Part shown: in pieces, positions 6,901-48,273 of the stretch
How the letters are laid out: every line of letters begins with the position of its first letter
How positions within the stretch are numbered: position 1 is the first letter of the stretch
Source: a virus
Length of the DNA stretch: 64,000 nt
Virus record (IMG/VR): IMGVR_UViG_3300009182_000042
Span: 20,053-84,052 of that record
Strand: one strand, 5' to 3'
Program-made: the position numbers and the translations under genes
The notes under the pieces: generated by a model
What the model was told of the DNA's origin: nothing
Database searches by the model: none
What the model saw: the letters and a program-made list of their open reading frames with translations, nothing else

Positions 6901-9900
6901 GCCGCTGGCGGAATTTGGGCAAACAATCAGTATTATATCAATACAATACCAAGCTCTACCACATTCACTATTACCAATAGTTACAAGAGCGGTACAGCCT
7001 ATACAATCACCAACACAGCCAGCAGTATGACTGCCACGGCAACATTTGGTCCTACTGCTACTGTGTTGTATTACAACAGTCCTATGATACATGGTAGTGT
7101 AACGTACAATGGCACACTGACCACAGTCAATGCCGCTGAGATTATTCGTGCCAACGTTGGATTTTTAAGTGCAGAAGCAACTGCATATGTGGCTGCCAGT
7201 TATGGCGGTTCAATTTCAAGCACAGCCGCAACAACAAACTTGATAACAACTTCGGGCAATCACAACTTTACAGTTGGTGATCCTGTACAATTTAGTGGAA
7301 GTGTAGTTGGCGGGCTTAGTGCGGCAACAACTTATTATGTGTTGACTGTAAACAGCAACACAACATTCACAGTGTCGTTGACTCAAGTAAGCCAAGGTAC
7401 ACAAACGGCAGTGGCGCTAACAAATACAAGTAGTGCGTTCACTGTAACTTATTTTAACACAGCACAAAGTTATATCACTTCATTCTTAAATGGAATGATC
7501 TACGACTTGCAATATACTGGAAACAGTAGAAGTTTGAGAGCTGTAGAGCTCTACAACAATGCTGTTGGTAGCTCCACTATCAGTAACATGTTCTTGGTAC
7601 GTAATGGATCTGGACTTCGAAACATGACTTTGTCAGGTATTACAGGTACCTTGAGTGCGGCAAATGCCTATGGTACAAAACGTCCAACAGGCGGTGCTTA
7701 TACAAGCCTTGATCCAGGCTTTGGACCTAACGATACCAGTGTTCAAATATTGACACGCAGTACCTATGTACAAAATTGTACCATGTTTGGTTATGCCTGC
7801 GTGGGTGCAAAAGTTGACGGAGCACTGCATAGTGCGGGCAATAAGTCTATTGTTTCTAACGATTATACTTGCGTTATCGGTGATGGTATTGGTTGGTGGA
7901 ATACTGGCACTGGGTCTCTAGCAGAACTTGTTTCAGTTTTTAACTACTACAGCTATTCAGGCTATCTAGCTGAGCTAGGTGGACGCATCCGTGCTACAAA
8001 CGGTAACAGTTCTTATGGCACATACGGTGTGCTTGCCGAAGGTACTGACACATTTGAAACTCCAATATATGCCAATTTAAATAACAGAGCGGCTGCCGCC
8101 ACGATAACCACTGTGGTAACTGACAGCACTACACAGATTCTACGATTTGAATATGGTAATGCCGGTATCAACTATACAAATTCTGTTCCTACAGTTAACG
8201 GATCTGGTTACAACGCAGTGGCTTTCCAAGATGAATTCCGTGATGCCGCAGTATTTGAAACAAGATTGATTGATCCAAACAACACAGGATTAACTGGCGG
8301 AACAAGTTATGTGTCAGCAGTTAATGTGGGACAAACCAACGCCAACGGCGTGGGTTATCAACTGATTGCGGCTGCCGACACTGCACTAACTGGCGGGTAT
8401 AATGGCATGAAGGTACAGATAACAGCTGGTACTGGTGTTGGACAAGTTGCTAATATTTTGGCTTTCAACAATGCCAGCAAATATGCACAAATTATTCGTC
8501 CAACATTTGCTACACTACCAGTGACAGCAAGTACAAATGCAACTGCCGCATCCAGCAGTAGTGCTTTCATAGCAACATATGCAGGAAGATATCCAACGCT
8601 GGTAGCACCTGTCATGGGATCAGGCTCTTATGTGGCCGGTATGTATCTAACTAGTAGCGGTACAGTCACAGCTGGTACATATATCACAGCAATCAACACT
8701 GGATCAATCACTAGTGCATCAATAGCCAGTTCAACATTTAGTTCAACTGGATCAATTGGCGCAAGTATTACCGGTGCTGGTACAGCAGCCAATCCATGGA
8801 TAGCAACCATCACAGGTATGAGTAGCACCAGCAGTTTTGTAGTTGGTGCCCAGATCACTGCTACAAATGGTACAGGTACATTATACGGTAGCACTCCAAC
8901 CAGTGTAATTGTAGCAAGTGTTCCAAGCACAACCAGTATCACATACAGCGTGATCGGCGGCACAATTCCCACAACAGGAACTGTTACCAACATTCAACAG
9001 ACCATGTTGTCAGGCTCTGCATTTGCCAACTTGTTACCAGGTATGGTACTAAGTGGTGGTAGTGTGATTGCTAGTTATGTTGCAGGACAGGTAACAGCTA
9101 CTGGAACTGCACTGGCTACTGCCACAATGACTGGAACTATCAGTACAAACACATTGACTCTAGCAACATTCACAGTTGGCTCAATTTACACAGTACAAGT
9201 TGGGCAATATGTTGCTCAAATTAGCGGAATACCAGCGGGCACATACATAACCGCAGTGAACCCAGCAACTGGAGTGATAACAATTAACACAACATTGTAT
9301 GGTGCAGTCAGTGGTAGCAACAGTACTTACACCGCAGGTGGTGCAGGCACATATGCATTAACAGCTAACAGCTTTACAACAGTTACCGGCGCACCAACAA
9401 CAGGTACTCAATATTTGTTGAATACTGCGCAGACTCAGATAGCCGCTACTGTTACAGGCACACAGAACACATTAACTGTGGCCAGCAACGCATCGTTGTA
9501 TAACACAATGCCGTTGTATCTTGGTACAGCAGTTGCACCGTTGAGTGGTGTTGCTATTTCGGCAACTGGAGCAATTTCATTTACCTCAACTACAACAGCA
9601 CTACCAGCTAATACTCAAGTGGTTATTTCTGGTGCTAACGTTGGAACAGGCATAGTGGCGACAGGAACATTCTTTGTGGCTGCAAGCCCATCGCCAACAA
9701 CAACTGGTGTAACATTATTAACTGCACTTTCTGGTGGTACAACTATCAGTACAACAGCAGGTACAGTGGTAACTAGCGGTAACTTATCCAGTGTCAATAT
9801 TGGTTCAAGTGGTAACTTGACATTTACAGCATTAGGCGCGGCACTACCAGCAGGAACACCAGTTGTAATTAGTGGATCAAACGGTGGTGGTGGTACAATT

Positions 9901-12900
9901 GCCAACGGTACATACTATGTTGCTGTGACACCAACACCAACTTCAAGTGCAATAACATTGGTTACCACAAGCGGCGGCTCAACAAGCCCAACCACAACAT
10001 CTGGTACTCCAAGCGGTTTGACATTTGCGTTTAGTTTGGTTAATCCATTGACATTCACCTACACATTAACAGCACCGTTTGGATTATCTTCGTTTAGTGT
10101 GTACTACGTGAACGGCATCACCAACTCAAATGGCGCTGCCAGCACAACATTTAGTGTGACAACTACTGCATCTGGAACATCTCCAGTGGCAGTAAATTCT
10201 ATTACAGGACAAAACGTGTCGCTGTATGCGGCTGGATGGGACCATGTGGTTCCAGGTAGTGTTATCAATAACACTACTGATTTGACATCAGCATACATTA
10301 TAGAACCATCAATCAGCTATACAGGTCCAGGTTACACAGGCGTAGCAAGATCATTGGCAACCAGTGCCAGTTATGTGGGCGTTGCTTACGGTTCTGGAAA
10401 CTATGTTGCTGTATCAACGGGCGCTACCACTACACAATATAGCACAACTGGTCGTGCATGGGCCAACGGCGGCGCATTACCAAGTGCAACATCTTGGAAT
10501 GCTGTAACATATGGCGGAGGCCAAGGCGCACAAGCCACAGTTACAGTTGGTGGTTTTGGCGGAAGCGGTGCAGTATTAACAGCAGTTGTGGTGGGCGGCC
10601 AAGTAACAGGCATTACTATTGTCAACGGTGGCTTCAACTATAACACAGTTCCAACAATCACCATTACTCCAGTCAGCGGAGGATCAGGTGCTTCGGCAAT
10701 CTGTACAGTTCTAAATGGTACTATCACTACAGCTACCATGGTTATTAATGGTTCTGGTTATGCTAGTGGTGCTACAGTTGCAGTGGTTACCAGTGCAGTT
10801 TCCGCAGTTACCACTGTCACACGAGGACAAAATTACGGATACAACAGCACAACTCCATCTGTTACATTAAGTGCTCCATTTAGCGGCACAGTATGGAGCA
10901 GTGGTGGTAGTGGCACAAGTGGTAGTTACTACTATTTTGTGAATACTGGTGTAACTCCTAACGTAACCAACTACTATCAGGCCACAAGTACAGGTACATT
11001 TACCACAAGCGGCCCAACACATACCACCGGTACAGTGGCCAACAACACAGTAAACTTGTTGTATGTGGGTACACAAGCCACAGTAACACCTACATTAACC
11101 AATAATGGTATCAGCAGTTATACAGTAACCGTAGCTGGATTTGGATATTCAACTGTTCCTACAATTACTATTGCAGATTTGTCAGCAAGATTTGTGGCAA
11201 TCAGCACAACAACAGCTGGTGCAAACGTGGCACCTACTGGAGTAGCAGGCGCATGGAATTCTATGACATTGCCAAGTGCAGGTTATAATGCAATTGCATA
11301 TGGTCTAGGACAATATGTTGTAGTAGGCGGTACAGCCGGTGCAGGTATTATAGCAAGCAGTAGCGATGGTATCAACTTCAATGCACGAACTGTTCCAGCA
11401 GGTGCATCAGCTCAGTATTTTAGTGCTGTGGCATACGGTTCTACAGGAACAGGCGCATCTGGTAACACGTCAACTGGATTGTTTGTAGCCATACCTTTGT
11501 ATGGTAACACACCTGTTACAAGTACAAACGGTACCACATGGGCGATTCCACAAACCGCAGGCGGATCCAATGTGACTTTGCCGGCTTCACTGGCATGGAG
11601 CGGGATTGCATATGGTAATGGTCGTTTTGTAGCAATTGCCAGCAATAGTTCTAGCATAGCTTACAGTCTTAACGGTGGCGGCGCTTGGAACTTGTCCACT
11701 GTTGCTGGAGGTTCTGGACTGCCAGGTGTTTACAGTTGGTCAAGTATTGCTTATGGTGAAGGTCAATTTGTGGCCATAGCCGCAAACAGTGCTGTAAGTG
11801 CTACCAGCTGGGACGGTATCAACTGGACTATACAGACATTACCAGCAACACAAAACTGGAGCAGTGTGGCATTTGGTAACCCACTGGCCGCAACTATCGG
11901 ATATAACCCGCTGTTTGTAGCAGTTGCAAATACTGCTGGAACATCTGCGGCTGTGATACATACTGGCGCAACGCCACAAGGCCGTGTCAAAGTAACTAGC
12001 AATGCAGTTAGTGAAATACGTGTGATTGAGCCAGGAAGTGGATTTGCAAAAGGTATTGTTACTGCAACAACCGCAACCACAAACGTTATCACAGCTGATA
12101 ATATTGAAAACTTGTCAGCAAATCAACCAGTTGAGTTTAATACAGTAAGTGCAGGTGGGTTGGCTTTACAAACAACTTACTATGTGATTGGTTCCAGTAT
12201 TACAACAACCTCAGCACCAGCCGGCACGTTCCAAGTGGCTACCACATCGGGTGGCACAGTACCAGTGACATTGACAACCACTTCACCAACCGGTATGACA
12301 TACACAACTGGTCCTATAGTTACTATTACTGATCCAAACCGTATTAATGCGGCATTGGTCAGAGTGCGTACAGGTGATGGAGTGCTTGGTAACCCTAGCT
12401 TTCCTAACAGAGGTGCTGCCAATGCAACTGCAACAGCAAACACAGTAGGTGACGGATATAGCGACATCTATCAGACCAGCACATTTATCAACATAAGCAA
12501 TTTGTATACTTTACCAACTGCTGGTGCAAACGTGCAATTTGCATCAATATCAAATGTTTGGTACAAATTGGTTGCAGTGACAAACTTGTTGGGTATTCCA
12601 GGCAACTACACAGCCACATTCCAGATAAATCCAGGACTTAGCGTGTATCTTGCTCCTACCACTGGTAATTTGATTACCACAAGATTGAAATACAGTCAGG
12701 TTCGCTTGACTGGACATGATTTCTTATATATCGGTACTGGAAACCAGACACAGACAAATTATCCGTATGTCAATGTAAGTAGTGCAGTTTCTGCCAATCA
12801 AACATTGGGCAGTGTGGGTGGCCGTGTGTTCTTTACAAGTACAGACCAGGACGGCAACTTCAACGTTGGAAACTTGTTTGGAGTACAGCAATCAACAGGT

Positions 12901-13263
12901 ACTGCTAGTTTGAACGCCAGTGCGTTTAACTTGGCTGGATTACAGAGTTTGACACTGGGAGCGGTATCAGTTGGTGTGGGATCCGCTACTATTACAAGTT
13001 TCAGTACTGATCCGTACTTTACTGCTAATAGTGACAACATTATTCCTACGCAGAAAGCTATCAAGAGCTATATCACAGCCCAGATAGGTGGTGGTTCTAG
13101 TAGCTTGAACGTAAATACATTGACAGCGGGCGTGATATTCATTGGTAATAATCAAATATATAACACTACCGGATATCAACAGATATACGTAAGCAGTAAA
13201 ATGCTATTCACAGGTGGAATTGATGGGGCACCAGTTGCTCTTACATTCTTCGCACAAAGATAA
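919..13263 (+). CDS. Giant (4114 aa) virion structural / tail-fibre-like adhesion protein
   Basis: T/G/S/A-rich. About seven N-terminal W..xxY..GDxVxYGG..Y repeats (CBM5/12-like), repeated GGL..TTYYV...FQVA modules, a beta-helix-like section (STYVQNCTMFG...SIVSNDYT), and C-terminal WSxIAYGxGxFVA / SxDGxxW propeller-like repeats. Confidence 0.75.
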   Translation: MAEYKLGRIKFVYQGTWTGSSTYVVDDVVSVGGKTYICIVSNTSSAVFATDLASSYWSLVADGTRWTGTWANATYYQLGDQVLYGGIVYQATTAHTSATATATLTATGFTVSGGTATLTYASQVVQPFLVGATITLAGFTPTQTSGTVNTVNTTFTVVTCTTTQVTFALTGTYTVSVLGTVAGASQLGLELNQANWTAFASNINYLSTWSVNTRYKVNDLVTYGGYTYIATTAHVSANTTALGLEQDQAKWSTFNPGLSYQGAWSGSSVKYRLNDIVKYGASLFICTTAHVSSATFSTSNFATFVNGLQYVPGGSNAWSSATTYVTGDIVTYGGNLYVASQIASNQNPTTATTYWNLYTGGFSYQGAWTGVTSYKIGQVVNLGGYTYLALADNTQNVLTLTGTTVTTNIITLSASTTALVANLPVVFASTVGGLTGSQTYYVIGSSITANTFQVASISGGVSPVTLSTTTGQSVSVTTQPQPPFATYWSRLNSGIRYNPTTGTYNAVSATNVTGTGTSATFNVTASKTTYSVTLASGGSGYSSTGGSNTIKIVGTSLGGLSPANDITITITGQSSGAITTFTSVGYAVTWSTAVSYVLGDVVYFGSNSYICVSGHVSASGNKPDADTVGAYWNLLAAGNESAVLTVTGDLFYYGSTGPTRLPIGTDGQVLRVNSNTPSWAYYGQINNIVYVSSATGVDTLATSQGTTLDKPWRTIQFACQQVENGYLNLNLGNLIQINKQFLLKEVNNFVLYNYTFNITATTTSTNLITVGGSSTIAQTTTTNLYSNMPVVFNVTAGGLTAGTTYYVIGSSITSTQFQVATNPSTSGAQTAVTLSTTSTANLGQYVYSQSKTERDTGFIVDGIIFDITHTGNSKTIANALTYFNSAGTGYTSGVLAYDISPFVKALNYLSTLITSNVGANTAPGTNYQTTISSAVTVTGASGTGAIATITFSAQSYAYNVGSQITVASVSPAGYNGTYVVLSSTTTSVSYANTTTASYISGGTVNYTRATQQINTTYTAEAAALTRIPVLVGLVTAPLSLGNTTPITGILANATTTISVKTGTYNEVLPIVVPSYTVVYGDELRSSTVQPAVANITLANDKPKTIVALTRLQTQLGNLLQNTSITGSTGNTQYLSVSASTGAASVATLTFAAQTTAPFSVGQYITVSGFTSSAAGYNGSYAVTACTTTTVSYANATTASTSGSPIVSGQNTQLSVADVGSSTAVNTINTFTSSINNMIFNGIAQVPAISITTVTGYNSSFLPGHSTGVTQITSNYGFIKAELTAFMNTNYSSVWSSLGVAGQQIYLLQIQYILDGMQYDMAYGCNNQSIINGSSYYSLNINQIPLVNQPAYLATFQRLQAIVGQIVRAQSVAATAGNGATQTTGSDAGVAPAAFASARIADVIYWFTNGNANSTVNTITGSISGTTLTVSSQTSAVAPGTLLTGTGINGMYIVNQISSSAGAQAATTYSSGGGNGTSTFVVASATGIAAGQFITGTGIPAGTYVASTYSSGSTTVPIANYFGSPVTFTLQASGAYLFYPANTAGTYTLSITGGTGTAFTSLSTFTPVNSGAYTLVGSNALQLAYTQLQARATEIASDTQVFVAKYNQQYNISATLTSRDAGLIVNALSFDVLFTTNFNTIAVGRAFNRSNTSAQAVVNNVNNQLYATTAAINFIGFKAKMIAAAGGQVQAQTLIDDIIYRINGQATTTLTTATVSTNVLTASSTSAMAVNQPVSFTNLPANINTTVTSTLAAFAGSITATATVALTGVGTITSNGGGSFTFGTAQSAGTFYVGQVLTPTGSLSGITWTGYTAGTSYVVSVTNGTSTVTLTTVTGNVLTVTQGTASGITFNTYLATITTTGLVIGSAIALSSTGFGGLTTATTYYVIGFGPTASASCALSATAGGNSVALSNGSGTMIAQTTTNLLNLTGYVGTLGITVGQQCYFSGGTYAGISPYQLYYIVSASGTGITVSTTSGGSSVTISTVSSGSMTLTVNAAGGIWANNQYYINTIPSSTTFTITNSYKSGTAYTITNTASSMTATATFGPTATVLYYNSPMIHGSVTYNGTLTTVNAAEIIRANVGFLSAEATAYVAASYGGSISSTAATTNLITTSGNHNFTVGDPVQFSGSVVGGLSAATTYYVLTVNSNTTFTVSLTQVSQGTQTAVALTNTSSAFTVTYFNTAQSYITSFLNGMIYDLQYTGNSRSLRAVELYNNAVGSSTISNMFLVRNGSGLRNMTLSGITGTLSAANAYGTKRPTGGAYTSLDPGFGPNDTSVQILTRSTYVQNCTMFGYACVGAKVDGALHSAGNKSIVSNDYTCVIGDGIGWWNTGTGSLAELVSVFNYYSYSGYLAELGGRIRATNGNSSYGTYGVLAEGTDTFETPIYANLNNRAAAATITTVVTDSTTQILRFEYGNAGINYTNSVPTVNGSGYNAVAFQDEFRDAAVFETRLIDPNNTGLTGGTSYVSAVNVGQTNANGVGYQLIAAADTALTGGYNGMKVQITAGTGVGQVANILAFNNASKYAQIIRPTFATLPVTASTNATAASSSSAFIATYAGRYPTLVAPVMGSGSYVAGMYLTSSGTVTAGTYITAINTGSITSASIASSTFSSTGSIGASITGAGTAANPWIATITGMSSTSSFVVGAQITATNGTGTLYGSTPTSVIVASVPSTTSITYSVIGGTIPTTGTVTNIQQTMLSGSAFANLLPGMVLSGGSVIASYVAGQVTATGTALATATMTGTISTNTLTLATFTVGSIYTVQVGQYVAQISGIPAGTYITAVNPATGVITINTTLYGAVSGSNSTYTAGGAGTYALTANSFTTVTGAPTTGTQYLLNTAQTQIAATVTGTQNTLTVASNASLYNTMPLYLGTAVAPLSGVAISATGAISFTSTTTALPANTQVVISGANVGTGIVATGTFFVAASPSPTTTGVTLLTALSGGTTISTTAGTVVTSGNLSSVNIGSSGNLTFTALGAALPAGTPVVISGSNGGGGTIANGTYYVAVTPTPTSSAITLVTTSGGSTSPTTTSGTPSGLTFAFSLVNPLTFTYTLTAPFGLSSFSVYYVNGITNSNGAASTTFSVTTTASGTSPVAVNSITGQNVSLYAAGWDHVVPGSVINNTTDLTSAYIIEPSISYTGPGYTGVARSLATSASYVGVAYGSGNYVAVSTGATTTQYSTTGRAWANGGALPSATSWNAVTYGGGQGAQATVTVGGFGGSGAVLTAVVVGGQVTGITIVNGGFNYNTVPTITITPVSGGSGASAICTVLNGTITTATMVINGSGYASGATVAVVTSAVSAVTTVTRGQNYGYNSTTPSVTLSAPFSGTVWSSGGSGTSGSYYYFVNTGVTPNVTNYYQATSTGTFTTSGPTHTTGTVANNTVNLLYVGTQATVTPTLTNNGISSYTVTVAGFGYSTVPTITIADLSARFVAISTTTAGANVAPTGVAGAWNSMTLPSAGYNAIAYGLGQYVVVGGTAGAGIIASSSDGINFNARTVPAGASAQYFSAVAYGSTGTGASGNTSTGLFVAIPLYGNTPVTSTNGTTWAIPQTAGGSNVTLPASLAWSGIAYGNGRFVAIASNSSSIAYSLNGGGAWNLSTVAGGSGLPGVYSWSSIAYGEGQFVAIAANSAVSATSWDGINWTIQTLPATQNWSSVAFGNPLAATIGYNPLFVAVANTAGTSAAVIHTGATPQGRVKVTSNAVSEIRVIEPGSGFAKGIVTATTATTNVITADNIENLSANQPVEFNTVSAGGLALQTTYYVIGSSITTTSAPAGTFQVATTSGGTVPVTLTTTSPTGMTYTTGPIVTITDPNRINAALVRVRTGDGVLGNPSFPNRGAANATATANTVGDGYSDIYQTSTFINISNLYTLPTAGANVQFASISNVWYKLVAVTNLLGIPGNYTATFQINPGLSVYLAPTTGNLITTRLKYSQVRLTGHDFLYIGTGNQTQTNYPYVNVSSAVSANQTLGSVGGRVFFTSTDQDGNFNVGNLFGVQQSTGTASLNASAFNLAGLQSLTLGAVSVGVGSATITSFSTDPYFTANSDNIIPTQKAIKSYITAQIGGGSSSLNVNTLTAGVIFIGNNQIYNTTGYQQIYVSSKMLFTGGIDGAPVALTFFAQR

Positions 13264-13659: not shown

Positions 13660-15603
13660 ATGGCACGTTATAACAGCTCAGCAGTTGCTACACTAAGTTC
13701 GGCAACGGTTATCACAACTCCAAGTCAGGGGTTGTTGACAGAATTGGTCGGATCACCGCCTTATGCGGTGCAAATTCCCGATCCAACTATTTGGTATGGT
13801 CAAACACAGACCTACTATAATAACTCAGGAGGTGTTGTAACACTGAATACTCCTGCCGGTACATTTATTGGTCCAGGAAGTTCAGGCAGTTCAAGTTTAC
13901 AGATGCCCAATCAAAGTGTTGTGGTATTGGCATCGGACACTACCAAATATGTTATCTCATCATTCGACGGCGGCCCAACTTATGCTCAAACTGGTAACGG
14001 TAACAGCAGTAGTTATGCATTGTTGTTGAACGGTGACTTGGTGCAAAGTGCATCAACCATGAACTTGGTCAACACCAACACCACAACTGTCAACGCATTT
14101 GGCGCAGCCACAAGTATCAATATTGGTGCTCCATTCAGCACAACAACCTTTAACGGCAGTGTGTTCGTCAAAGGCGGCTTGGTGCAAGTCAACTCCAGCA
14201 GTGTGTTGGTAGAAGATAAAAATATTGAAATTGGTTATATCAACCCTATCAGCTACGGCGGCGGCACAATAACAACCATCGGTGGATCCATTTCCGGTTC
14301 AACCACATTTACCAGTATTAGTGGTACAAAGATTGCCGCAGGTTATACTGGCACAGTGTCTGGTGTGAGTCAATTCAGCACCAGCGGTGCTGGCACTGGT
14401 GCAACATTCAACATCACCATAAGCGGTGCTGGCACAACATACACTGGTGTTACCACAATTACGGTGGTCGCCGGCGGCGTGGGTTATGCACTGGGTGATA
14501 CTGTAACCATTGGTGGTAGTGTGTTTGGCGGCTCAAGTGCCAACGGTACCAACAACCTGACATTCACAATCAGCAACGTGAACGCCAGTCCTTGGTATGC
14601 CACAATTACAGGCATAACCAACACCACCAACTTGGTGGTAGGCAGCGCAATCAGTGCCACAAACGGTACTGGTAGTTTTGGTTCTGGTAATACTTCTCAG
14701 TTGGTTTTGAGCAATCTAAGTAGTACCAGCATACAGATTGTGGTCACAGGCGGCACAACGCCAGTAGCGGGTACAGTTACCAATATTACACCGGGTTCCA
14801 ACGATGCTTATGCCAATGACGGTGGTATCAAGCTGTATGGCTCAACAAACAAAACACTGATTTGGTCGCTGAATTCAGTTGGACCAACCAGTGGCAATAC
14901 TGGCCAACCATCATGGACCACCAGCGAAGGCTTGTCTTTCAGAAGTGCCACTGCCAGTAACTTTGGTATCCAAACATACCCTGGATCGGGCACTGGTTTT
15001 AACATATTAACCAACGGTGTAACCAACGGCACAGTCAACATTGCTACTGATGCAGTAACTAATAACCTGTTCACAGCTGGTACTGCAAACACCATTGGTG
15101 CATCTGGATCTGGCACAACTACTATTAGAAATACCACTTTAACATTCAGCGGTACCACTCTAAATGCAACTGCCATGACCAACTTCAACGGTAAAACTAC
15201 TGGTTGTTTCATGTATATTGGTAGCCTGGCTATTGGTACAACCAACAATCCAGGTGACGGTCAGATCAATGCAACCAGCAACATCATAGCGTATTACTCA
15301 GACGACAGACTAAAAACACGATTGGGCACCATTGAAAATGCTCTTGAAAAATTGGAAACACTAACTGGTTTCTACTATGAAGCCAACGAAACAGCACAGG
15401 CACTGGGTTACAAATCAGTGCGTGAAGTAGGTGTGTCAGCCCAAGATGTGCAAAAGATCCTACCAGAAATTATCAAGCCAGCACCTATTGACGCTAAGTA
15501 CATGACAATTCAATACGAAAAGTTAACACCATTAGTAATTGAAGCAGTTAAGGAACTGAGTGCCATGGTAAAAGAGTTGAAAGCCAAGATTGATAAGGAA
15601 TAA
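13660..15603 (+). CDS. Tail fibre with C-terminal intramolecular chaperone (Peptidase S74) domain
   Basis: YYSDDRLK...IENALEKLETLTGFYY...GVSAQDVQKILPE...YEKLTPLVIEAVKEL followed by a coiled coil is the S74 autocleaving chaperone signature. Confidence 0.85.
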   Translation: MARYNSSAVATLSSATVITTPSQGLLTELVGSPPYAVQIPDPTIWYGQTQTYYNNSGGVVTLNTPAGTFIGPGSSGSSSLQMPNQSVVVLASDTTKYVISSFDGGPTYAQTGNGNSSSYALLLNGDLVQSASTMNLVNTNTTTVNAFGAATSINIGAPFSTTTFNGSVFVKGGLVQVNSSSVLVEDKNIEIGYINPISYGGGTITTIGGSISGSTTFTSISGTKIAAGYTGTVSGVSQFSTSGAGTGATFNITISGAGTTYTGVTTITVVAGGVGYALGDTVTIGGSVFGGSSANGTNNLTFTISNVNASPWYATITGITNTTNLVVGSAISATNGTGSFGSGNTSQLVLSNLSSTSIQIVVTGGTTPVAGTVTNITPGSNDAYANDGGIKLYGSTNKTLIWSLNSVGPTSGNTGQPSWTTSEGLSFRSATASNFGIQTYPGSGTGFNILTNGVTNGTVNIATDAVTNNLFTAGTANTIGASGSGTTTIRNTTLTFSGTTLNATAMTNFNGKTTGCFMYIGSLAIGTTNNPGDGQINATSNIIAYYSDDRLKTRLGTIENALEKLETLTGFYYEANETAQALGYKSVREVGVSAQDVQKILPEIIKPAPIDAKYMTIQYEKLTPLVIEAVKELSAMVKELKAKIDKE

Positions 15604-16124
15604 TGATGTCAGATCAAGACAATAATCAGCCAGTCGATCCAAAAGCAATCCAACCGCAGACCATTACTGGCGGTACTATTTCGTTCGCCAACATTACAGC
15701 TGAAATTGGGCAGGGTAACAGCAATGTGGGTTTGCAATTTTTGAACACCTATGTTGCACCCAGTCTAACTGGATATTTTCAAAATGCTCCCAACGGTGGC
15801 AACTGTGTGGGCTACAATAGCAACTGCGGGTCAACTCCACGTCCCACATTCCGTAGCACATATCCTGACATGAACGAATTTAGGAACTTAACTTATTTCA
15901 ATAGTCAAAACAAGGGACAATGTAACAACGGTAATTGTACCAACAACAACTGTAACTGCGGAAATATCGCCTGCTACAACTGTACTATCAATGGTCGTAT
16001 TAACTGTCAGAATTGTGACGGACAAGCATGGCTACAAGCTAATTGTAACTGCGCCTGTACAATGAATTGTAATTATACCAGCTACAGCGTGGCTTGTAAT
16101 TGCAACTGCAATTGTAATTGTTAA
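15603..16124 (+). CDS. Asn/Cys-rich protein; candidate radical-SAM substrate and candidate fibre-tip protein
   Basis: 19 Cys, 17 of them in residues 107-173; ends CNCNCNCNC; TAATG overlap with the fibre gene; directly upstream of an rSAM/SPASM gene. Confidence 0.7.
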   Translation: MMSDQDNNQPVDPKAIQPQTITGGTISFANITAEIGQGNSNVGLQFLNTYVAPSLTGYFQNAPNGGNCVGYNSNCGSTPRPTFRSTYPDMNEFRNLTYFNSQNKGQCNNGNCTNNNCNCGNIACYNCTINGRINCQNCDGQAWLQANCNCACTMNCNYTSYSVACNCNCNCNC

Positions 16125-16141
16125 TACACTAAAGGTAACCC

Positions 16142-17599
16142 ATGAAATTTGAAATATTAGCATCACGGAACAAAGACGACGAGAAGATATTTTATTACGA
16201 TAACCAAACAAACACGCTGAGTGACGAAACTGGGTTTGTTTATGAGTATCCCCATGCTCTGGCCAGTGTTACACATACTCACGTACAAAAACCCTATGTT
16301 AGTTTTGATAAAGATCGTCCTCTTAAAAAATCTAAATCCGCACGTATAGTAAAAATTCAGATGGGGCTTAGTTGCAATTACAGTTGTGACTATTGCAGTC
16401 AGAAATTTGTAGAACGTCCAAAAGAAACCAACGCCAAAGATATTGAAAATTTTATGGAACTGTTCAACAACCTGGAGTTTGATGAACAACAGGGACTAAA
16501 GGTGGAGTTCTGGGGCGGCGAGCCGTTTGTGTATTGGAAAACCATGAAGCCCCTGGCTGAAGCGATTGCAGATCGTTTTGAAAGCTGGCAGAAAAAACCC
16601 ATGTTCAGTGTGATTACTAATGGTAGTCTATTGACTGAAGAAATCTGTGCATGGTTATACAGCATGAATTTCAGTATAGCTATCAGTCATGATGGCCCTG
16701 GTCAGCATGTGCGTGGTCCAGATCCATTTGATGATCCAAAAAAGCGTGAAATTGTGTTGGACCTTTATCAGATTCTTAGACCTTTAGATCGTATCAGTTT
16801 CAACAGCATGCTCAACAGCAAGAACACCAGTCGCAAAGAAATTTATGATTGGTTTGTGGAATTCACCAACGATCCAAGTGTTGTACTGGGCGAAGGTGCA
16901 TTTGTTGATGCATATGATGCAGATGGTTTAGAAAACTCAATGAAAACCAAAGCTGAACATTTTGCTTTTAGACAACGTGCTTTCGGAGAAATTTATGGCT
17001 CCGCTGGTGATATTGGATTCACCGGCATCCTACAAAAAGTAGATAATTTTACTGAAGCTGTGCTTACACATAAAAATGCAGAATTTTTAGGGCAGAAATG
17101 CGGTATGGACGACGAGGGTGTTATAGCATTTGACCTAAAAGGCAATGTTATTACCTGTCAAAACGTCAGTGCATTGGAGATTGGCAAAAACGGTGAATCG
17201 CATCTGGGTGGAAACCTTGCAGATCTAGACAGTGTGGAAATCAAAACTGCCACTCACTGGAGCAATCGTAAAGAATGTAGCGGTTGCCCAGTGCTACATA
17301 TTTGTCAAGGGGCTTGTATGTTCCTAGACGGTGAATATTGGACTGCCAGTTGCAACAATGCATATAGTGATGCTATTCCCCTGTTTGCCACCAGCATTAT
17401 GAAAATAACCAACGGGTATATTCCTATGACTGTAAAAAGTGAAGAATTGCCCTTAGAAAGACAGGATATCTTTGGGACTATGATGAAACACCAAGAATGG
17501 ACACCAAAAAAGATAATCCCCATCAAAGTTGTAAGCGAAAAAGTAGCTGTTATTGACAATGTCGAAGTCTACGGACAAAGCACTGTGATAAATAGTTAA
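16142..17599 (+). CDS. Radical SAM enzyme with SPASM domain (peptide/protein maturase-like)
   Basis: CNYSCDYC (CxxxCxxC, residues 78-85), FWGGEP, ITNG, ISHDG; SPASM pattern C320-x13-G-x4-C339 ... C379xxC382x5C388x3C392...C404. Confidence 0.92.
   Translation: MKFEILASRNKDDEKIFYYDNQTNTLSDETGFVYEYPHALASVTHTHVQKPYVSFDKDRPLKKSKSARIVKIQMGLSCNYSCDYCSQKFVERPKETNAKDIENFMELFNNLEFDEQQGLKVEFWGGEPFVYWKTMKPLAEAIADRFESWQKKPMFSVITNGSLLTEEICAWLYSMNFSIAISHDGPGQHVRGPDPFDDPKKREIVLDLYQILRPLDRISFNSMLNSKNTSRKEIYDWFVEFTNDPSVVLGEGAFVDAYDADGLENSMKTKAEHFAFRQRAFGEIYGSAGDIGFTGILQKVDNFTEAVLTHKNAEFLGQKCGMDDEGVIAFDLKGNVITCQNVSALEIGKNGESHLGGNLADLDSVEIKTATHWSNRKECSGCPVLHICQGACMFLDGEYWTASCNNAYSDAIPLFATSIMKITNGYIPMTVKSEELPLERQDIFGTMMKHQEWTPKKIIPIKVVSEKVAVIDNVEVYGQSTVINS
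17587..17594 (+). promoter_or_regulatory. Late promoter (GATAAATA)
   Basis: Lies at the 3' end of the rSAM gene, upstream of AAGGAG SD and ATG 17622. Confidence 0.5.
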
Positions 17600-17621: not shown

Positions 17622-18602
17622 ATGAATTTGTATATTTCCACACATTGTCGTAGATATTATGCTGTTGAAGCAGTTGTTACCTCTGAAGGGATCGAATATA
17701 AAACTTATCCAGCATATCTAATATCAGAACTGAAAAAATACTGGGCCTCCTTGGCAAACAGTGGTATTCCGGGTACTTTGATTTTTGATGATCAACATCC
17801 TATGATTACCCCTGATATGAAACCACTGTGGACTACAGATACTGTTGCTGTGTATGATGTGCAAGTTGCAAACAACACCTATACCAGCGGAGTTATAGAT
17901 TTTCAATTGGATATAAAAAATAATAATGATTATAGCGATCATGCACAATACGATATATATTCTCCAGGGTGCCTGGCTGTAACAACGGTATTTGACGAAC
18001 ATAGAGACAAACATAGCAATGATATTATGAGCTATAGCGCAATGACCAAAGCACAGACAGTATCCAACGGTATATCTAGAGGCTACATGATTCCGATACA
18101 TAACTCTGTGGCACAAACATCTCATTCAAGAATGAAGCCGCATGTGCATCAGCGTTTGACAGGCAATGCACCTATGATCAGCATCATGGTTCCACTAGCA
18201 GACATGGACCCAACAGATTGGGAGATTGTGTTCACTGTGGCAGAAGAAGGACTGCTACGTGTGAACGGCAATACTGTTGAACCAATTCCAGTGGGATACC
18301 TATTGAATCATATGCCTAAAGTATGGTTTAAGAAAAACACTGCCACCGTAAACACTAATAATTTTGTTGATTTAGAATTTTATTTAGGCACTGCTAGCGG
18401 AAGCCCGATTACTGGCCACGATGCAACAGTGTATATCAAAACCACTGGCGGCCAACTCAATAAAACTCAAGTGCGAACAGTTAACGGAGAAGGTAAAGTG
18501 AAACTGATTTCAAATCATTTGGAATCAGGCGATGTTATCAAAGTAAGTGTTGGCTTTCAATACTATTCCGGCACAGATGATTGTATTGTTACAGTCAAAT
18601 AA
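17622..18602 (+). CDS. Hypothetical protein with a probable C-terminal Ig-like beta-sandwich
   Basis: Strong SD. The last ~90 aa alternate like beta strands (ATVYIKTTGG...GEGKVKL...GDVIKVSVGF). Confidence 0.55.
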   Translation: MNLYISTHCRRYYAVEAVVTSEGIEYKTYPAYLISELKKYWASLANSGIPGTLIFDDQHPMITPDMKPLWTTDTVAVYDVQVANNTYTSGVIDFQLDIKNNNDYSDHAQYDIYSPGCLAVTTVFDEHRDKHSNDIMSYSAMTKAQTVSNGISRGYMIPIHNSVAQTSHSRMKPHVHQRLTGNAPMISIMVPLADMDPTDWEIVFTVAEEGLLRVNGNTVEPIPVGYLLNHMPKVWFKKNTATVNTNNFVDLEFYLGTASGSPITGHDATVYIKTTGGQLNKTQVRTVNGEGKVKLISNHLESGDVIKVSVGFQYYSGTDDCIVTVK

Positions 18603-18608: not shown

Positions 18609-19775
18609 ATGAAACTGGCCATAATAGGCGATGGCAAAGCCAGTGCCATAGCAATACTAACAGTTCTAGATCTAGTAAAAAATAAAAATTACACAGATCT
18701 AGAACTTTTTATTTTGCACGATACTATACGTGCCAACGACCAGTTGGCAACCGCTGCCAATCCTGTGTTAAATCGATTGCTCAAAAATGTGATTAACTTT
18801 AATGATCACGCGGACATTAAAAAAATACAAGGCAGCATGAGACTAGGAATCAGCCACACGTGGCACGATGACTCGTTGGCCAAATGCTGGATACAATCTC
18901 CAAGTCCGGGTCTACATTTTAATGGTAATATTTTCTTTGATTTTGTAGTAGAGTCAGTATGTAATCTTTATGCGAATGTCACTTATCAAACTGGGAAAAT
19001 GCGAAAATTAAATCAGTCTGATCAGTATGCCACGGTGTCACTGGACGAAACTGAATTGCTATTTGATTATGTAATAGACACAACCGGATTAGATCAGACC
19101 AATTATACAGTACCGGACTTTGCTCCAGTAGACAAAATAATAACAGCCGAAACTAAAAATTCCTATAATGAATCGCATACATCGATTACATTCCATGACA
19201 ATGGCTACAGTTTAGGAATACCACTAGTAGGCAAGAAAGTTGTATATTATTTTTATAACAGTAAAATTATCAATGTAGATCAAGCAGTGGACAATTTTAA
19301 TCAAATTGCCAGTTTAAATACCGATCCTCAATTGAAAGATTTCAATCCCAGATATAAAAAATACAGTATAAATGATAGAATCATATATGCAGGACCCGGT
19401 TTGTTCTATATGGAGCCAATACAGGCATTGCCCTTTCACTTTTATCAAGATACAATAAAAATAATATTGTCTAATCTCATGTTAGAAAATTATAACAAAT
19501 CGTTAGACATAGAAGCTAATCAAGGTTATATTACCAACATGGAATTAAAACAAGACTTGATTGCACTTACCTATCATAATAAAAATAATTATTCATCAGA
19601 ATTTTGGAAACAAGCTAGAGATAACAGTAAAAAATACTTGTCGCAGTCAGAGCATTTTAAAAAATTTGTAGATAATTATAAAAATACAGGTAATTTAGAA
19701 TATGATTTGCATGACAACAAAGTGGCCGTGAAATATATCACAGGCTTGGGCATAGATCTAGATAAGATCTACTAA
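18609..19775 (+). CDS. Flavin-dependent tryptophan-halogenase-like protein (divergent)
   Basis: N-terminal Rossmann-like KLAIIGDGKAS, FDYVIDTTG, NGYSLGIPL at the position of the halogenase WxWxIP motif, FYMEPIQA, and Y.SEFWK. Confidence 0.6.
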   Translation: MKLAIIGDGKASAIAILTVLDLVKNKNYTDLELFILHDTIRANDQLATAANPVLNRLLKNVINFNDHADIKKIQGSMRLGISHTWHDDSLAKCWIQSPSPGLHFNGNIFFDFVVESVCNLYANVTYQTGKMRKLNQSDQYATVSLDETELLFDYVIDTTGLDQTNYTVPDFAPVDKIITAETKNSYNESHTSITFHDNGYSLGIPLVGKKVVYYFYNSKIINVDQAVDNFNQIASLNTDPQLKDFNPRYKKYSINDRIIYAGPGLFYMEPIQALPFHFYQDTIKIILSNLMLENYNKSLDIEANQGYITNMELKQDLIALTYHNKNNYSSEFWKQARDNSKKYLSQSEHFKKFVDNYKNTGNLEYDLHDNKVAVKYITGLGIDLDKIY

Positions 19776-46544: not shown

Positions 46545-47051
46545 ATGCAGATACTAACATTAGACAATCAAACGTTCTCACTGAACAATTTACCAGAGGA
46601 AGTGGACGAAAATACCAGATTCGCGGTGCTGGATAACAGCAATCCCAACGAGCCAGATTTTTTCTTCATGCCGTTGATATTCCTAGAATCATTCAACGCA
46701 CCTGCTATGGTATTAAATATCGGGGGTAACGAAATTGCAATGCCCATTGACTGGAGCATAGCAGTTGGTGATAGTTCTAGTGGCTGTGACATTGAAATTT
46801 TGCCGTTAACCAGCTTGAACGATAGAGGATTTGAAGCACTGTGTTTTAACCCTCTCAGTAGTTTTAGAGTAGAATTTAAAAAAATAGAAATTGTAAATTT
46901 TTACAATGACGTCAAATGGTATTTTCCAAAGATGAAAAACAGCCAGCTATTGGCCACTCCGATTAGACAAGGAGACAAGCCAGACTGTGTGTATTTTGTA
47001 AAAGAAATATCAAGACAGAATGAAATTATTCAATTGGATAAAATATTATGA
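46545..47051 (+). CDS. Hypothetical protein
   Basis: AAGGA SD; ATGA overlap with the next gene. Confidence 0.6.
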   Translation: MQILTLDNQTFSLNNLPEEVDENTRFAVLDNSNPNEPDFFFMPLIFLESFNAPAMVLNIGGNEIAMPIDWSIAVGDSSSGCDIEILPLTSLNDRGFEALCFNPLSSFRVEFKKIEIVNFYNDVKWYFPKMKNSQLLATPIRQGDKPDCVYFVKEISRQNEIIQLDKIL

Positions 47052-47691: not shown

Positions 47692-48273
47692 ATGAAAATG
47701 ATACCAATTGGTATACAGATATACCAAAGCACTATATCCGATGAACTTTACAAGTTCTTGTTGGATCAGTACGAAAATCATTTGGAATCATACAACCAAT
47801 TATATCAAAATGAAAATTATTTTGGCGGTAGAGATTTTGAATTTTTAAAGCCAGCACACAAGCAATTTGTAGAAAATCAACTGTCGAAACATGTGATTGA
47901 ATATATAGGAAAAAACAATCTAAGATTACTTAATCAGTGGATCAACATTCAAGCACATGACGGATTCCAACCTGTACATAACCATACTGGCATCATTAGT
48001 TATGTGATTTATCTTAAAATTCCCGAGTACCTACAAAACTATGAAGGCAAGCGTAGACAGTGTATCGACTATGTGGAAGGTGCTATACAATTTAATTATG
48101 GACATGCAAACAGCCTATTTCCGCCACAAGCACTGGTATATCCAGAAGAACGTATGCTATTGATGTTCCCATCTGAAATCACGCACTATGTGTATCCTTT
48201 TAGGGACCGCGACAGTTTACGCATATCTATCAGCGGTAATTTTGTAAAGGAAAATTGGAATGGGCAATCTTAA
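47692..48273 (+). CDS. 2OG-Fe(II) oxygenase-like protein
   Basis: WINIQ...FQPVHNH.G.ISYVIYL...MFPSEITHYVYPF...RISISGN. Confidence 0.8.
   Translation: MKMIPIGIQIYQSTISDELYKFLLDQYENHLESYNQLYQNENYFGGRDFEFLKPAHKQFVENQLSKHVIEYIGKNNLRLLNQWINIQAHDGFQPVHNHTGIISYVIYLKIPEYLQNYEGKRRQCIDYVEGAIQFNYGHANSLFPPQALVYPEERMLLMFPSEITHYVYPFRDRDSLRISISGNFVKENWNGQS

What the first reader, a model, noticed from the sequence alone, without database searches (positions are those of the whole stretch)
15603..16124. Asn-Cys repeat protein with an adhesin-like N-terminus and many NxxC motifs
Seen: Cys at residues 68, 75, 107, 112, 117, 119, 124, 127, 135, 138, 148, 150, 152, 156, 165, 167, 169, 171 and 173; 15 of 19 follow Asn. 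NxxC units recur (NSNC, NGNC, NNNC, NIAC, NCAC, several NCNC). Codons in the terminal CNCNCNCNC vary (tgt aat tgc aac tgc aat tgt aat tgt), so it is not a fresh DNA slippage. Established: streptococcal NxxcB links Cys-S to the Asn beta-carbon in an NxxC motif. Inference: the N-terminal GGTISFANITAEIG...MNEF resembles, by eye, the G.IS...I..E.G...M..F segment of small proteins encoded after S74 fibres that cap the fibre tip (gp38-like position). That gives a docking/leader part plus a modifiable core. A metal-binding or disulfide role is the alternative.
Basis: partly seen in the sequence, partly recalled or inferred. Interest (0 to 1): 0.85.

Follow-up and report, generated by a model that had tools for sequence, protein, structure and literature searches.

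The report
Radical-SAM-paired Asn-Cys phage fibre-tip protein
A giant freshwater phage encodes, right after a tail-fibre gene, a small protein packed with Asn-Cys pairs that always travels with an iron-sulfur "radical SAM" enzyme, so the phage probably cross-links part of its host-binding fibre chemically.

Summary
In detail: the 173-aa ORF has 19 Cys at the stated positions and 15 follow Asn. It is not a one-off. It belongs to a phage protein family with no name in any library I searched (82 relatives; 125 representative clusters). The family has a conserved N-terminal module and a ~70-aa Asn/Cys core under strong purifying selection.

The gene is tied to the radical SAM/SPASM gene next to it. 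That gene lies within 1.8 kb on the same strand in 75 of 82 loci found through the Asn/Cys motif, and the other 7 loci are cut there. Starting from the enzyme instead, 76 of 80 loci have the partner, and the other 4 are cut.

Relatives carry self-cleaving fibre modules (S74 chaperone or Hint) directly after the core. Cultured phages JWF and RSP15 have the same enzyme beside tail fibres that end in Cys-X-Cys tracts.

My best reading is a fibre-tip or adhesin-type protein whose Cys are cross-linked by the enzyme, probably as thioethers. The chemistry, the virion location and the docking are all inferred. Metal binding is not excluded.

This scan has flagged the same system before on other DNA. 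I found no paper that describes it in phages.

The parts
15603..16124 (+). Gene for the 173-aa Asn/Cys-rich protein (stop included). Its start overlaps the stop of the S74 fibre gene (TAATG).
   Evidence: 82 relatives and 125 representative clusters. No Pfam, PHROG or NCBIfam family.
15603..15656 (+). Residues 1-18: an N-terminal extension specific to the window's clade. About 96% of relatives start at the position of residue 19.
   Evidence: alignment of 138 distinct sequences
15657..15761 (+). Residues 19-53: the conserved N-terminal module (family consensus MTLPxSGxIxxSDVxxExG...L.WLN). I propose it is a docking or anchor part.
   Evidence: The same motif heads an RSP15 protein that follows an S74 fibre. 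The AF2 model reaches pLDDT of about 69 only in this stretch.
15762..15845 (+). Residues 54-81: an insert specific to the window's clade, holding C68 and C75. About 96% of relatives lack it.
15915..16121 (+). Residues 105-173: the conserved Asn/Cys core (GNCxNGNC..NCNCGNIxCxNC..VNCxNCDxQAWLQxNCNCACTYNC..YNCNCxC), ending in CNCNCNCNC. This is the proposed substrate of the rSAM.
   Evidence: Cys columns 107, 135, 138, 148, 156 and 165 are 99-100% conserved. Synonymous to non-synonymous codon differences are 18:3 and 21:4. AF2 gives no confident fold here, pLDDT 30-45.
16142..17599 (+). Radical SAM/SPASM enzyme, 485 aa. CX3CX2C lies at residues 78-85 (16373-16396). The seven SPASM Cys lie at residues 320-404 (17099-17353).
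   Evidence: PF04055 and phrog_1802. All 10 Cys are 100% conserved in 52 distinct homologues. AF2 pLDDT is 86 and the best folds are anSMEcpe, CteB, ChlB, TigE and SuiB. The best NCBIfam match is PapB, below its cut-off.
13660..15603 (+). Upstream tail fibre, 647 aa, with a C-terminal S74 intramolecular-chaperone domain. The predicted self-cleavage site is after Ser547 (codon 15298-15300, ...IIAYYS|DDRLK).
   Evidence: PF13884 at residues 547-604 and tail-fibre PHROGs. Site located.
17622..18602 (+). 326-aa accessory partner. It is a homologue of RSP15 ORF047, which lies next to that phage's rSAM, and it is present in only 6 of 79 related loci.
18609..19775 (+). 388-aa accessory protein resembling a tryptophan halogenase. 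It is not part of the conserved core of the cassette.
   Evidence: PF04820 at 6.9e-15 and phrog_2928. A blastp homologue occurs in 1 of 79 loci. Longer halogenase-like ORFs occur in 7 loci.

Best explanation
The ORF encodes a small fibre-tip or adhesin-type phage protein built from two modules. The first is an N-terminal module of about 35 aa that is shared with other small proteins encoded after S74 tail fibres. I infer that it anchors the protein to a fibre or to the particle. The second is an Asn/Cys core of about 70 aa, which I take to be the substrate of the radical SAM/SPASM enzyme encoded 17 nt downstream.

Proposed mechanism, late in infection in the reducing cytoplasm: a substrate Cys thiol binds the open iron of an auxiliary cluster. 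The 5'-deoxyadenosyl radical abstracts a side-chain hydrogen, most likely the beta-hydrogen of a neighbouring Asn or Asp. A C-S (ranthionine-type thioether) bond then forms, and this repeats along the NCNC ladder. The result would be a compact, redox-independent, protease-resistant tip.

Shown here: the family exists, the core is conserved, the gene and the enzyme are obligately linked, the enzyme has a complete three-cluster architecture, and relatives carry fibre-type self-processing modules directly after the core.

Inferred: that the enzyme acts on this protein, that the product is a thioether, which residues accept, that the protein is in the virion, and that the N-terminus docks on the S74 fibre.
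For: 1. Linkage. A search for the back-translated NCNCACTYNC motif gave 77 viral and 5 bacterial-genome loci. A homologue of the window's rSAM lies on the same strand within 1,778 nt (median 309) in 75 of these 82. The 7 loci without it have only 27-496 nt of DNA on one side.

2. Reciprocal linkage. Among the 80 best of at least 586 IMG/VR stretches that encode the rSAM, 59 have a same-strand frame with 9 or more Cys in 40 aa within 2.5 kb. Another 17 have a 296-340-aa ORF with 13-17 Cys directly downstream that ends in the long-form tail. The last 4 are cut at the rSAM.

3. Enzyme. CX3CX2C and all seven SPASM Cys are 100% conserved in 52 distinct homologues. The best family matches are PapB at 1.8e-20, QhpD, the geopeptide maturase, CcpM, anSME, TIGR04463 and SCIFF maturases. 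The best folds are anSMEcpe, CteB, ChlB, TigE and SuiB, with E 9e-12 to 3e-9.

4. Fibre context.
- The window gene is translationally coupled to an S74 fibre gene.
- An S74 fibre is directly upstream in 23 of 80 sources, the window and 22 of 79 loci.
- Relatives fuse the core to an S74 chaperone (...NCDCFWS|DD.LK) or to a Hint domain. Both modules cut themselves off fibre ends.
- Other relatives insert a PF21722 glycine-rich domain between the two modules.
- S74-fused forms are also followed directly by the rSAM.

5. Cultured phages.
- The Achromobacter phage JWF fibre gp028 reads ...QNCNCDCNCNCSC, followed by a Hint domain. It lies one gene away from an rSAM 45% identical to the window's.
- The Ralstonia phage RSP15 side tail fibre ORF048 ends ...SNTNCQCGN, two genes before its rSAM, which is 46% identical to the window's.

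6. Selection. The core shows synonymous to non-synonymous differences of 18:3 and 21:4, against 33:32 and 39:32 in the rest of the protein.

7. Precedents.
- NxxcB makes Cys to Asn-beta thioethers (PMC9389541, passages).
- CrpC, a SPASM rSAM, installs ranthionine cross-links on a 28.8-kDa Cys-rich protein (PMC13692751: abstract, sections 12 and 14).

8. Weak hint of expression. One 306-nt contig of a lake-water RNA library, with no differences from the window, covers 15487-15791 across the fibre/Asn-Cys gene junction. DNA carry-over in that library cannot be excluded.
Against: - No chemistry was measured, and gene linkage does not identify the reaction.
- The rSAM is far below the cut-off of every named family: PapB 73 bits against 340, TIGR04463 47 against 525, anSME 53 against 349. 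Its single best fold hit is anSME, which oxidises Cys rather than cross-linking it.
- Only 7 of the 16 conserved Cys have a conserved Asn at -3. In CrpA the Cys comes before its acceptor residue, which is the opposite order.
- AF2 gave no fold for the core, so trimer or tip geometry is not shown.
- Sixteen conserved Cys in about 65 residues could equally bind metals or form disulfides after lysis.
- I have no virion proteomics for any member.
- The commonest relatives (about 295 aa) end in an unknown domain with a hydrophobic tail. That could mean a membrane location rather than the virion.
- The pre-cleavage ends of the upstream S74 fibres are diverse, apart from the generic ..AYS|D.RLK junction, so no specific docking site is visible.
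- The loci were sampled through one 10-residue motif and through the 80 closest enzymes, so more distant rSAM relatives were not examined.
Confidence: 0.55

Rival explanations
1. The Asn/Cys core is a metal-binding (metallothionein-like, or Fe/Zn-stapled like the His-x-His iron sites of the T4 gp37 tip, recalled) or disulfide-knotted fibre domain. On this reading the neighbouring rSAM does something other than thioether formation, for example oxidising a Cys to formylglycine or another single-site change.
For: About 25% of the core is Cys, in CxC, CxxC and CxxxxC spacings. AF2 cannot fold the core without cofactors. The top structural neighbour of the enzyme is anSMEcpe. The authors of the CrpA paper suspect a metal role for that protein (PMC13692751, section 14).
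Against: The strict two-way linkage to a three-cluster SPASM enzyme is not needed for plain metal binding. No metallothionein or other family was hit in Pfam or NCBIfam. Cys counts among relatives range from 14 to 22 and include odd numbers, so the Cys cannot all pair as disulfides. Assembly takes place in a reducing cytoplasm (established knowledge). The invariant Asn next to Cys is not a feature of metallothioneins (recalled).
Confidence: 0.2
2. It is a phage-encoded RiPP precursor. The N-terminal ~100 aa would be a leader and the Asn/Cys core would be released as a diffusible bioactive or metal-scavenging peptide, not built into the particle.
For: The layout is leader-like part plus Cys-rich core next to an rSAM/SPASM enzyme of RiPP-maturase type. 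A halogenase-like tailoring gene lies in the same cassette.
Against: - No protease or exporter gene lies among the neighbours.
- The core is fused to the fibre self-processing modules S74 and Hint.
- The core forms the very end of true tail fibres in JWF and RSP15.
- The N-terminal module also occurs without any core, after an S74 fibre far from the rSAM, in RSP15.
- The gene sits inside a late tail-fibre block and overlaps the fibre gene's stop.
Confidence: 0.1
3. It is a non-virion infection protein, for example membrane-anchored and acting on the host envelope or in superinfection exclusion. The fibre-gene neighbourhood would then reflect only shared late expression.
For: The commonest architecture (about 280-340 aa) ends in a ~165-aa unknown domain with a hydrophobic C-terminal segment.
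Against: The window's protein and the other short forms lack that domain. The same C-terminal domain ends a 616-aa protein with a weak, sub-threshold Ig-like match and a glycine-rich region that lies beside a 'fiber protein' gene in Synechococcus phage SynMITS9220M01. That suggests a removable assembly module, like S74 and Hint, which occupy the same position.
Confidence: 0.1

Closest known systems
CrpC/CrpA of Methanococcus voltae (TIGR04463 family; Dieter et al. 2026, PMC13692751; I read the abstract, sections 12 and 14, and passages)
   Same: A SPASM radical SAM enzyme with three [4Fe-4S] clusters and seven SPASM Cys is encoded next to a Cys-rich protein (not a short peptide), whose Cys it turns into ranthionine thioethers. 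The Cys are concentrated in the C-terminal part of the substrate.
   Different: CrpC/CrpA is an archaeal cellular system, not a phage fibre module. The window's rSAM scores 47 bits against a TIGR04463 cut-off of 525. In CrpA the Cys precedes its acceptor, and no Asn is involved ('Asn' occurs 0 times in the main text). The paper's main text does not mention phages (0 occurrences). Its Supplemental Data set 1 of similar clusters could not be opened.
NxxcB/NxxcA, streptococcal RaS-RiPP (review PMC9389541, passages)
   Same: A Cys thiol is joined to the beta-carbon of an Asn three residues upstream in an NxxC motif. Ten of the window's 19 Cys, and 7 of the 16 conserved Cys columns, have that spacing.
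   Different: NxxcA is a short quorum-regulated peptide with one motif. Here the substrate is a protein of about 125-340 aa with a 16-Cys ladder in phages. I could not compare the enzymes, because no NxxcB model or sequence was on hand.
PapB/PapA (freyrasin) and other ranthipeptide or SCIFF maturases (NF047865, CteB 5WHY/5WGG)
   Same: PapB is the best family match over the whole rSAM plus SPASM region (residues 71-394, E 1.8e-20). CteB is among the top fold matches. These systems also have substrates with many Cys.
   Different: The score is 73 bits against a cut-off of 340. The model shows three beta-strands and one short helix (38-41) before the radical SAM core, and I did not test for a RiPP recognition element. 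The substrate is a structural-type protein.
QhpD/QhpC (quinohemoprotein amine dehydrogenase gamma subunit; TIGR03906)
   Same: An rSAM/SPASM enzyme makes Cys to Asp/Glu thioethers inside a protein subunit that stays part of a larger assembly (recalled). It is the second-best NCBIfam match, 8.3e-19.
   Different: The match covers only the radical SAM core (residues 70-187), at 68 bits against a cut-off of 453. QhpC is a periplasmic enzyme subunit with 4 Cys.
T-even phage gp38 adhesins and S74-chaperone tail fibres
   Same: The gene comes directly after a fibre gene. Some relatives carry a glycine-rich domain (PF21722). Some relatives end in the S74 self-cleaving chaperone.
   Different: No sequence match to gp38 families appeared in Pfam or PHROGs. 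No known gp38 or fibre is paired with a radical SAM enzyme (searches found none).

Membership tests
Radical SAM/SPASM peptide or protein maturases (the enzyme partner) | CX3CX2C motif for the SAM cluster | tested here: met
   C78, C82 and C85 are 100% conserved in 52 distinct homologues. PF04055 at 8.7e-9.
Radical SAM/SPASM peptide or protein maturases (the enzyme partner) | Seven-Cys SPASM domain (C-x13-G-x4-C ... CX2CX5CX3C ... C) | tested here: met
   C320, G334, C339, C379, C382, C388, C392 and C404 are all 100% conserved. The fold matches anSMEcpe, CteB and SuiB.
PapB-type ranthipeptide maturase (NF047865) | Score above the curated NCBIfam cut-off | tested here: not met
   73.4 bits against a cut-off of 340
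TIGR04463 (CrpC-type maturase of Cys-rich proteins) | Score above the curated cut-off | tested here: not met
   47.3 bits against 525
Anaerobic sulfatase maturase (TIGR03942) | Score above the curated cut-off | tested here: not met
   53.1 bits against 349.45, although anSMEcpe is the best fold hit
Ranthipeptide- or NxxC-type thioether product | Cys-S to side-chain carbon bonds in the mature product | not testable with these tools
   Needs mass spectrometry or NMR of co-expressed protein
NxxC RaS-RiPP | Conserved Asn three residues before the modified Cys | tested here: inconclusive
   Asn at -3 is 86% or more conserved at 7 of 16 conserved Cys columns. At the other 9, position -3 is another Cys, Gln, Thr, Ser or variable.
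NxxC RaS-RiPP | Short precursor peptide in a streptococcal quorum-sensing operon | tested here: not met
   The protein is 173 aa and lies in a phage tail-fibre block
S74 (PF13884) self-cleaving fibre proteins | C-terminal intramolecular chaperone domain | tested here: not met
   The window's protein has none. The gene upstream has one, and so do relatives of about 215-241 aa, such as P0012 at 2.6e-5 and 9 proteins marked PF13884.
gp38-type fibre-tip adhesin | Sequence or profile similarity to known gp38 or adhesin families | tested here: not met
   No Pfam or PHROG hit for the window protein, even at E up to 1
gp38-type fibre-tip adhesin | Binds the tip of the preceding fibre | not testable with these tools
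   Gene order fits. Binding needs pull-down or cryo-EM.
Metallothionein-like metal binder | Match to a metallothionein family | tested here: not met
   No Pfam or NCBIfam family at E up to 0.01. Metal content itself cannot be tested here.

The most novel reading that the evidence does not exclude
Phages use a dedicated radical SAM enzyme to weld the end of a host-recognition fibre. Overlapping Cys-Asn thioether rings, possibly also between the three chains of a trimer, would turn the NCNC ladder into a covalent, redox-proof cap. This would be the first enzyme-installed radical cross-link in a virus particle, and it would be spread over hundreds of phage lineages, including cultured Achromobacter and Ralstonia phages.
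Probability: 0.3. Interest if true: 0.9.

Novelty: new variant of a known kind. Interest (0 to 1): 0.8.

Why it matters
Radical SAM/SPASM thioether chemistry is known from small antibiotic-like peptides and, since 2026, from one archaeal protein. Finding it hard-wired to tail-fibre-type proteins would add a new kind of virion maturation, alongside proteolysis and the self-catalysed capsid cross-links of HK97 (recalled).

It would also give RiPP chemists a large, conserved family of protein substrates. There are at least 586 enzyme loci in IMG/VR and 125 substrate clusters.

The idea can be tested directly in two cultured phages, JWF and RSP15. It bears on how receptor-binding tips stay stable in oxic, protease-rich water even though they are assembled in a reducing cell.

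Tried and rejected
- The megablast and tblastn searches of the window region and of the Asn/Cys protein against GenBank phages found nothing. BLAST's low-complexity filter may hide the core.
- The 'longer' protein search gave only two forms of about 330 aa, so no long fibres with the whole core were found. The tool itself calls this weak evidence.
- AF2 on the Asn/Cys protein with 83 rows gave mean pLDDT 47 and 30-45 in the core, so I made no fold search with it.
- Complex prediction, using three copies of fibre residues 440-547 plus three copies of the Asn/Cys protein, returned 'no answer' (score 0.00). This counts neither for nor against docking or trimerisation.
- Both protein atlas look-ups returned only unnamed viral clusters.
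- I looked for a shared docking surface at the mature ends of the upstream S74 fibres. Only the generic ..AYS|D.RLK junction is common.
- The 326-aa partner is not a core component: it is present in 6 of 79 loci by iterative search. The halogenase-like gene had a blastp homologue in 1 of 79 loci.
- Four large hmmsearch hits of 950-4816 aa with many short stretches were set aside. The two I read (P0193, P0210) are Asn/Gly/Thr-rich repeat proteins without Cys. P0178 and P0187 were not read.
- My first ORF-based count (rSAM in 72 of 79 loci) missed cases where spurious long ORFs masked real genes, such as L101. I replaced it with the tblastn count.
- The promoter/terminator scan found no more sites than the shuffles (28 against 21.5, and 8 against 5.9), so I drew nothing from it.
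- RNA-library contigs cover only parts of the stretch. I make no claim from the uncovered parts.
- Literature searches that found no paper on radical SAM modification of phage fibres. PMC12801897 merely lists an rSAM 'maturase' in a cyanophage as an 'antibiotic synthesis gene' (passages). PMC5332604 notes many rSAM genes in marine T4-like genomes (passages). PMC10288494 does not mention phages.
- Supplements are closed. Supplemental Data set 1 of PMC13692751, which lists similar clusters across life, may bear on novelty.
Full report
**Observation**

The ORF at 15603..16124 (+) translates to 173 aa. Fifteen follow Asn and ten have Asn at -3. None of 10,000 shuffles of residues 61-173 reached 15 Asn-Cys dipeptides (mean 4.8, maximum 12). 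The terminal CNCNCNCNC uses mixed codons. The start codon overlaps the stop of the preceding gene (TAATG), and the next gene starts 17 nt after the stop.

**Setting**

The window is part of an 84-kb fragment of an uncultured virus that CheckV rates 23% complete. It holds a T4-type tail module:
- a gp15-like sheath stabiliser (PF16724);
- a 4114-aa fibre;
- a 647-aa fibre with a C-terminal S74 chaperone domain, with the predicted cut after Ser547.

The gp15-like protein is 30-41% identical to those of Sinorhizobium phage Phosso, Agrobacterium phage Atu_ph07 and PA5oct-like Pseudomonas phages. Runs that hold the DNA are freshwater and lake metagenomes. One independent sample (X3, share 0.84) carried 8 contigs at 99% likeness or more.

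The gene order is: S74 fibre, Asn/Cys protein, radical SAM/SPASM enzyme, a 326-aa unknown, a halogenase-like protein, then a convergent Nudix gene.

**The protein family**

No Pfam, PHROG or NCBIfam model matches the protein. A word-indexed search still found 82 relatives with E up to 0.01 among 114 candidates. A profile of 19 short forms found 125 representatives with E up to 1e-3 among 1.84 billion cluster representatives, 98 of them at 1e-10 or better. Four large hits were set aside as compositional; I read two of them.

An alignment of 138 distinct sequences shows two conserved parts.

- **N-terminal module.** The consensus is MTLPxSGxIxxSDVxxExG...L.WLN. In about 96% of members it begins at Met1.
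- **Core.** The consensus is GNCxNGNC..NCNCGNIxCxNC..VNCxNCDxQAWLQxNCNCACTYNC..YNCNCxC.
 - Cys columns 107, 135, 138, 148, 156 and 165 are 99-100% conserved.
 - Asn at -1 is 77% or more conserved at 12 of 16 conserved Cys columns.
 - Asn at -3 is 86% or more conserved at 7 of 16.
 - Gln145 is invariant, and Asp139, Gly105 and Gly120 are nearly so.

The window's clade adds an 18-aa N-terminal extension and a 28-aa insert (residues 54-81). That insert holds C68 and C75, so these two Cys are not part of the family core.

Against two relatives that are 81% identical, the core shows 18 synonymous to 3 non-synonymous and 21 to 4 differing codons. The rest of the protein shows 33:32 and 39:32.

**Architectures**

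What follows the core differs between relatives:
- nothing (about 125-140 aa, as in the window);
- an S74 intramolecular chaperone that starts right after ...NCDCFWS|DD.LK (about 215-241 aa);
- a Hint domain that starts at ...C|CF.AG..VLMADG;
- an unknown domain of about 165 aa with a hydrophobic end (about 280-340 aa, the commonest form).

The unknown domain also ends a 616-aa protein of Synechococcus phage SynMITS9220M01 that has a weak, sub-threshold Ig-like match (PF07654, 17.3 bits against a cut-off of 21) and a glycine-rich region. That gene lies next to one annotated 'fiber protein'. Some members insert a PF21722 glycine-rich domain between the N-terminal module and the core.

S74 and Hint domains are self-removing modules of fibre and spike ends, and the S74 chaperone drives trimer folding (established knowledge, recalled). 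So in all these forms the mature product would end with the Asn/Cys ladder, as the window's protein does by itself. This is the main argument that the protein is a fibre-type structural part. It is an inference, because no virion data exist.

**Link to the enzyme**

The 485-aa neighbour has CX3CX2C and a canonical seven-Cys SPASM motif. All ten Cys are 100% conserved in 52 distinct homologues, including those of two cultured phages. AF2 models it well (pLDDT 86). The nearest solved folds are anSMEcpe, CteB, ChlB, TigE and SuiB. The best family matches are PapB (1.8e-20 over residues 71-394), QhpD, geopeptide, nif11, CcpM, HxsB, anSME, TIGR04463 and SCIFF maturases. All are far below their cut-offs.

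I tested the gene linkage in both directions.

- **From the substrate.** The back-translated NCNCACTYNC motif found 77 IMG/VR loci and 5 loci in bacterial genome assemblies: Paraburkholderia, Polynucleobacter, and Hyphomicrobiaceae, Lishizhenia and Saccharimonadales MAGs. By tblastn the rSAM is on the same strand within 1,778 nt (median 309) in 75 of the 82. It is downstream in 40 and upstream in 35. The 7 loci without it have 27-496 nt of flank on one side. Short forms have the order substrate then enzyme, and long forms have enzyme then substrate. The S74-fused forms are also followed directly by the enzyme.
- **From the enzyme.** Of at least 586 IMG/VR stretches that encode a relative, the 80 best (58-93% identity) were fetched. 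Of these, 59 have a same-strand frame with 9 or more Cys in 40 aa within 2.5 kb. Another 17 have a 296-340-aa ORF with 13-17 Cys directly downstream; 8 were labelled as the family by blastp, and all 17 end in the long-form tail by eye. The last 4 are cut at the enzyme.

More distant enzyme relatives were not sampled.

**Cultured phages**

The enzyme has homologues 45-46% identical inside the tail-fibre modules of Achromobacter phage JWF and Ralstonia phage RSP15.

- **JWF.** The fibre gp028 reads ...VKPRQNCNCDCNCNCSC and is followed by a Hint domain (PF05203, 3e-12). It lies one gene before the enzyme.
- **RSP15.** The 'side tail fiber' ORF048 ends ...IVNC...SMSNTNCQCGN, two genes before the enzyme. 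ORF047 is a homologue of the window's 326-aa protein (E 5e-9). Elsewhere in the genome, a 174-aa ORF directly after a 459-aa S74 fibre begins MGLPSSGAISMADIANEIG. That is the family's N-terminal module without any Asn/Cys core (profile E 0.012 on that genome).

It also argues that the N-terminal module is a general anchor rather than an rSAM leader. JWF gp028 lacks the module yet pairs with the enzyme, so recognition probably lies in or near the Cys tract (inference).

**Mechanism proposed**

Established chemistry provides two precedents. NxxcB joins Cys-S to the beta-carbon of an Asn three residues upstream, via a Cys bound to an auxiliary cluster, and it tolerates Asp, Gln and Ala (PMC9389541, passages). 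CrpC, a seven-Cys SPASM enzyme, installs ranthionine links on a 28.8-kDa Cys-rich protein (PMC13692751: abstract, sections 12 and 14).

By analogy, I propose that the phage enzyme makes several Cys to Asn/Asp thioethers along the ladder while the protein is still in the reducing cytoplasm. The tip would then not depend on disulfides or metals once released.

Which carbon is attacked, how many links form, and whether they are within or between chains are all unknown. The 7-of-16 Asn(-3) pattern fits only part of the Cys. The enzyme's best fold hit, anSME, is a reminder that other Cys chemistry is possible.

**Rivals**

The rivals are a metal-binding or disulfide domain (0.2), a released RiPP (0.1) and a non-virion, membrane-associated protein (0.1). 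The evidence for and against each is in the Rival explanations section.

**Accessory genes**

- The 326-aa partner occurs in 6 of 79 loci.
- Halogenase-like genes occur in the window, L045 and 7 further loci.
- PF13759-type 2OG-Fe(II) oxygenase homologues lie beside the cassette in 36 loci, counted by clustering (27 by blastp to the window copy).
- An unknown protein of about 100-146 aa follows long-form genes in 33 loci.

None of these is universal. The core is the two-gene pair.

**Expression**

One 306-nt contig from a lake-water RNA library, identical to the window, spans 15487-15791 across the fibre/Asn-Cys junction. Two other RNA libraries hold contigs inside the rSAM gene. DNA carry-over cannot be excluded, so this is only a hint.

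**Novelty**

Eight literature searches found no description of radical SAM modification of phage fibres. The CrpC paper does not mention phages in its main text, and its supplementary list could not be read. Earlier agents of this scan reached similar readings on other genomes. One of their notes led me to the CrpC paper, which I then read myself.

I class the finding as a new variant of a known kind. The kind is an rSAM/SPASM maturase paired with a Cys-rich substrate. What is new is the substrate class and its biological setting.

Noticed in passing
window 18609-19775; loci L005, L032, L051, L061, L073 and others: The window's halogenase-like protein (PF04820, matching profile positions 150-422 only) starts IIGDGKAS. 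Full-length halogenase-like ORFs of 498-512 aa that begin with a GGGTAG motif lie two genes after the cassette in 7 loci. Several family members end in Trp (...NCW, ...CFW|S74), which might be a halogenation target. The window's protein has no C-terminal Trp.
   Followed up: partly
window 47048-47689 and 47692-48273; 36 related loci: PF13759 2OG-Fe(II) oxygenase genes sit next to the Asn/Cys-rSAM cassette in many loci (27 by blastp, 36 by clustering). The window's own copies lie about 31 kb away. A role in hydroxylating Asn or Asp of the core is conceivable but untested.
   Followed up: partly
L096 3669-5519 (Synechococcus phage SynMITS9220M01 gp028): This 616-aa protein lies beside a 'fiber protein' gene. 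It has a weak, sub-threshold Ig-like match (PF07654), a glycine-rich region, a run of about 33 Pro and then 8 Arg, and it ends in the same unknown ~165-aa C-terminal domain that ends the long Asn/Cys proteins. That suggests a third kind of modular fibre-end domain besides S74 and Hint.
   Followed up: partly
33 related loci, gene directly after long-form Asn/Cys genes (e.g. L007, L013, L037): An unnamed protein of about 100-146 aa recurs immediately downstream of the long-form gene. Its function is unknown.
   Followed up: no
L101 4053-5385 (-), Hyphomicrobiaceae MAG; G002:C11:268924-270318: The rSAM next to the Asn/Cys gene in L101 matches as two overlapping tblastn pieces (query residues 1-88 and 65-446). 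This may be a frameshift or an assembly error. The Paraburkholderia copy has one in-frame TAG.
   Followed up: no
window 919-13263: A single 4114-aa ORF, Thr/Ser/Gly/Ala-rich and repetitive, lies at the head of the fibre block. Homologous giant ORFs precede the cassette in L001, L002 and L045.
   Followed up: no
L003 5150-5980 (RSP15 ORF046): A 276-aa protein lies between the 326-aa-type partner and the rSAM in RSP15. It has no Pfam match and has 3 Cys. It may be another accessory of the module.
   Followed up: no
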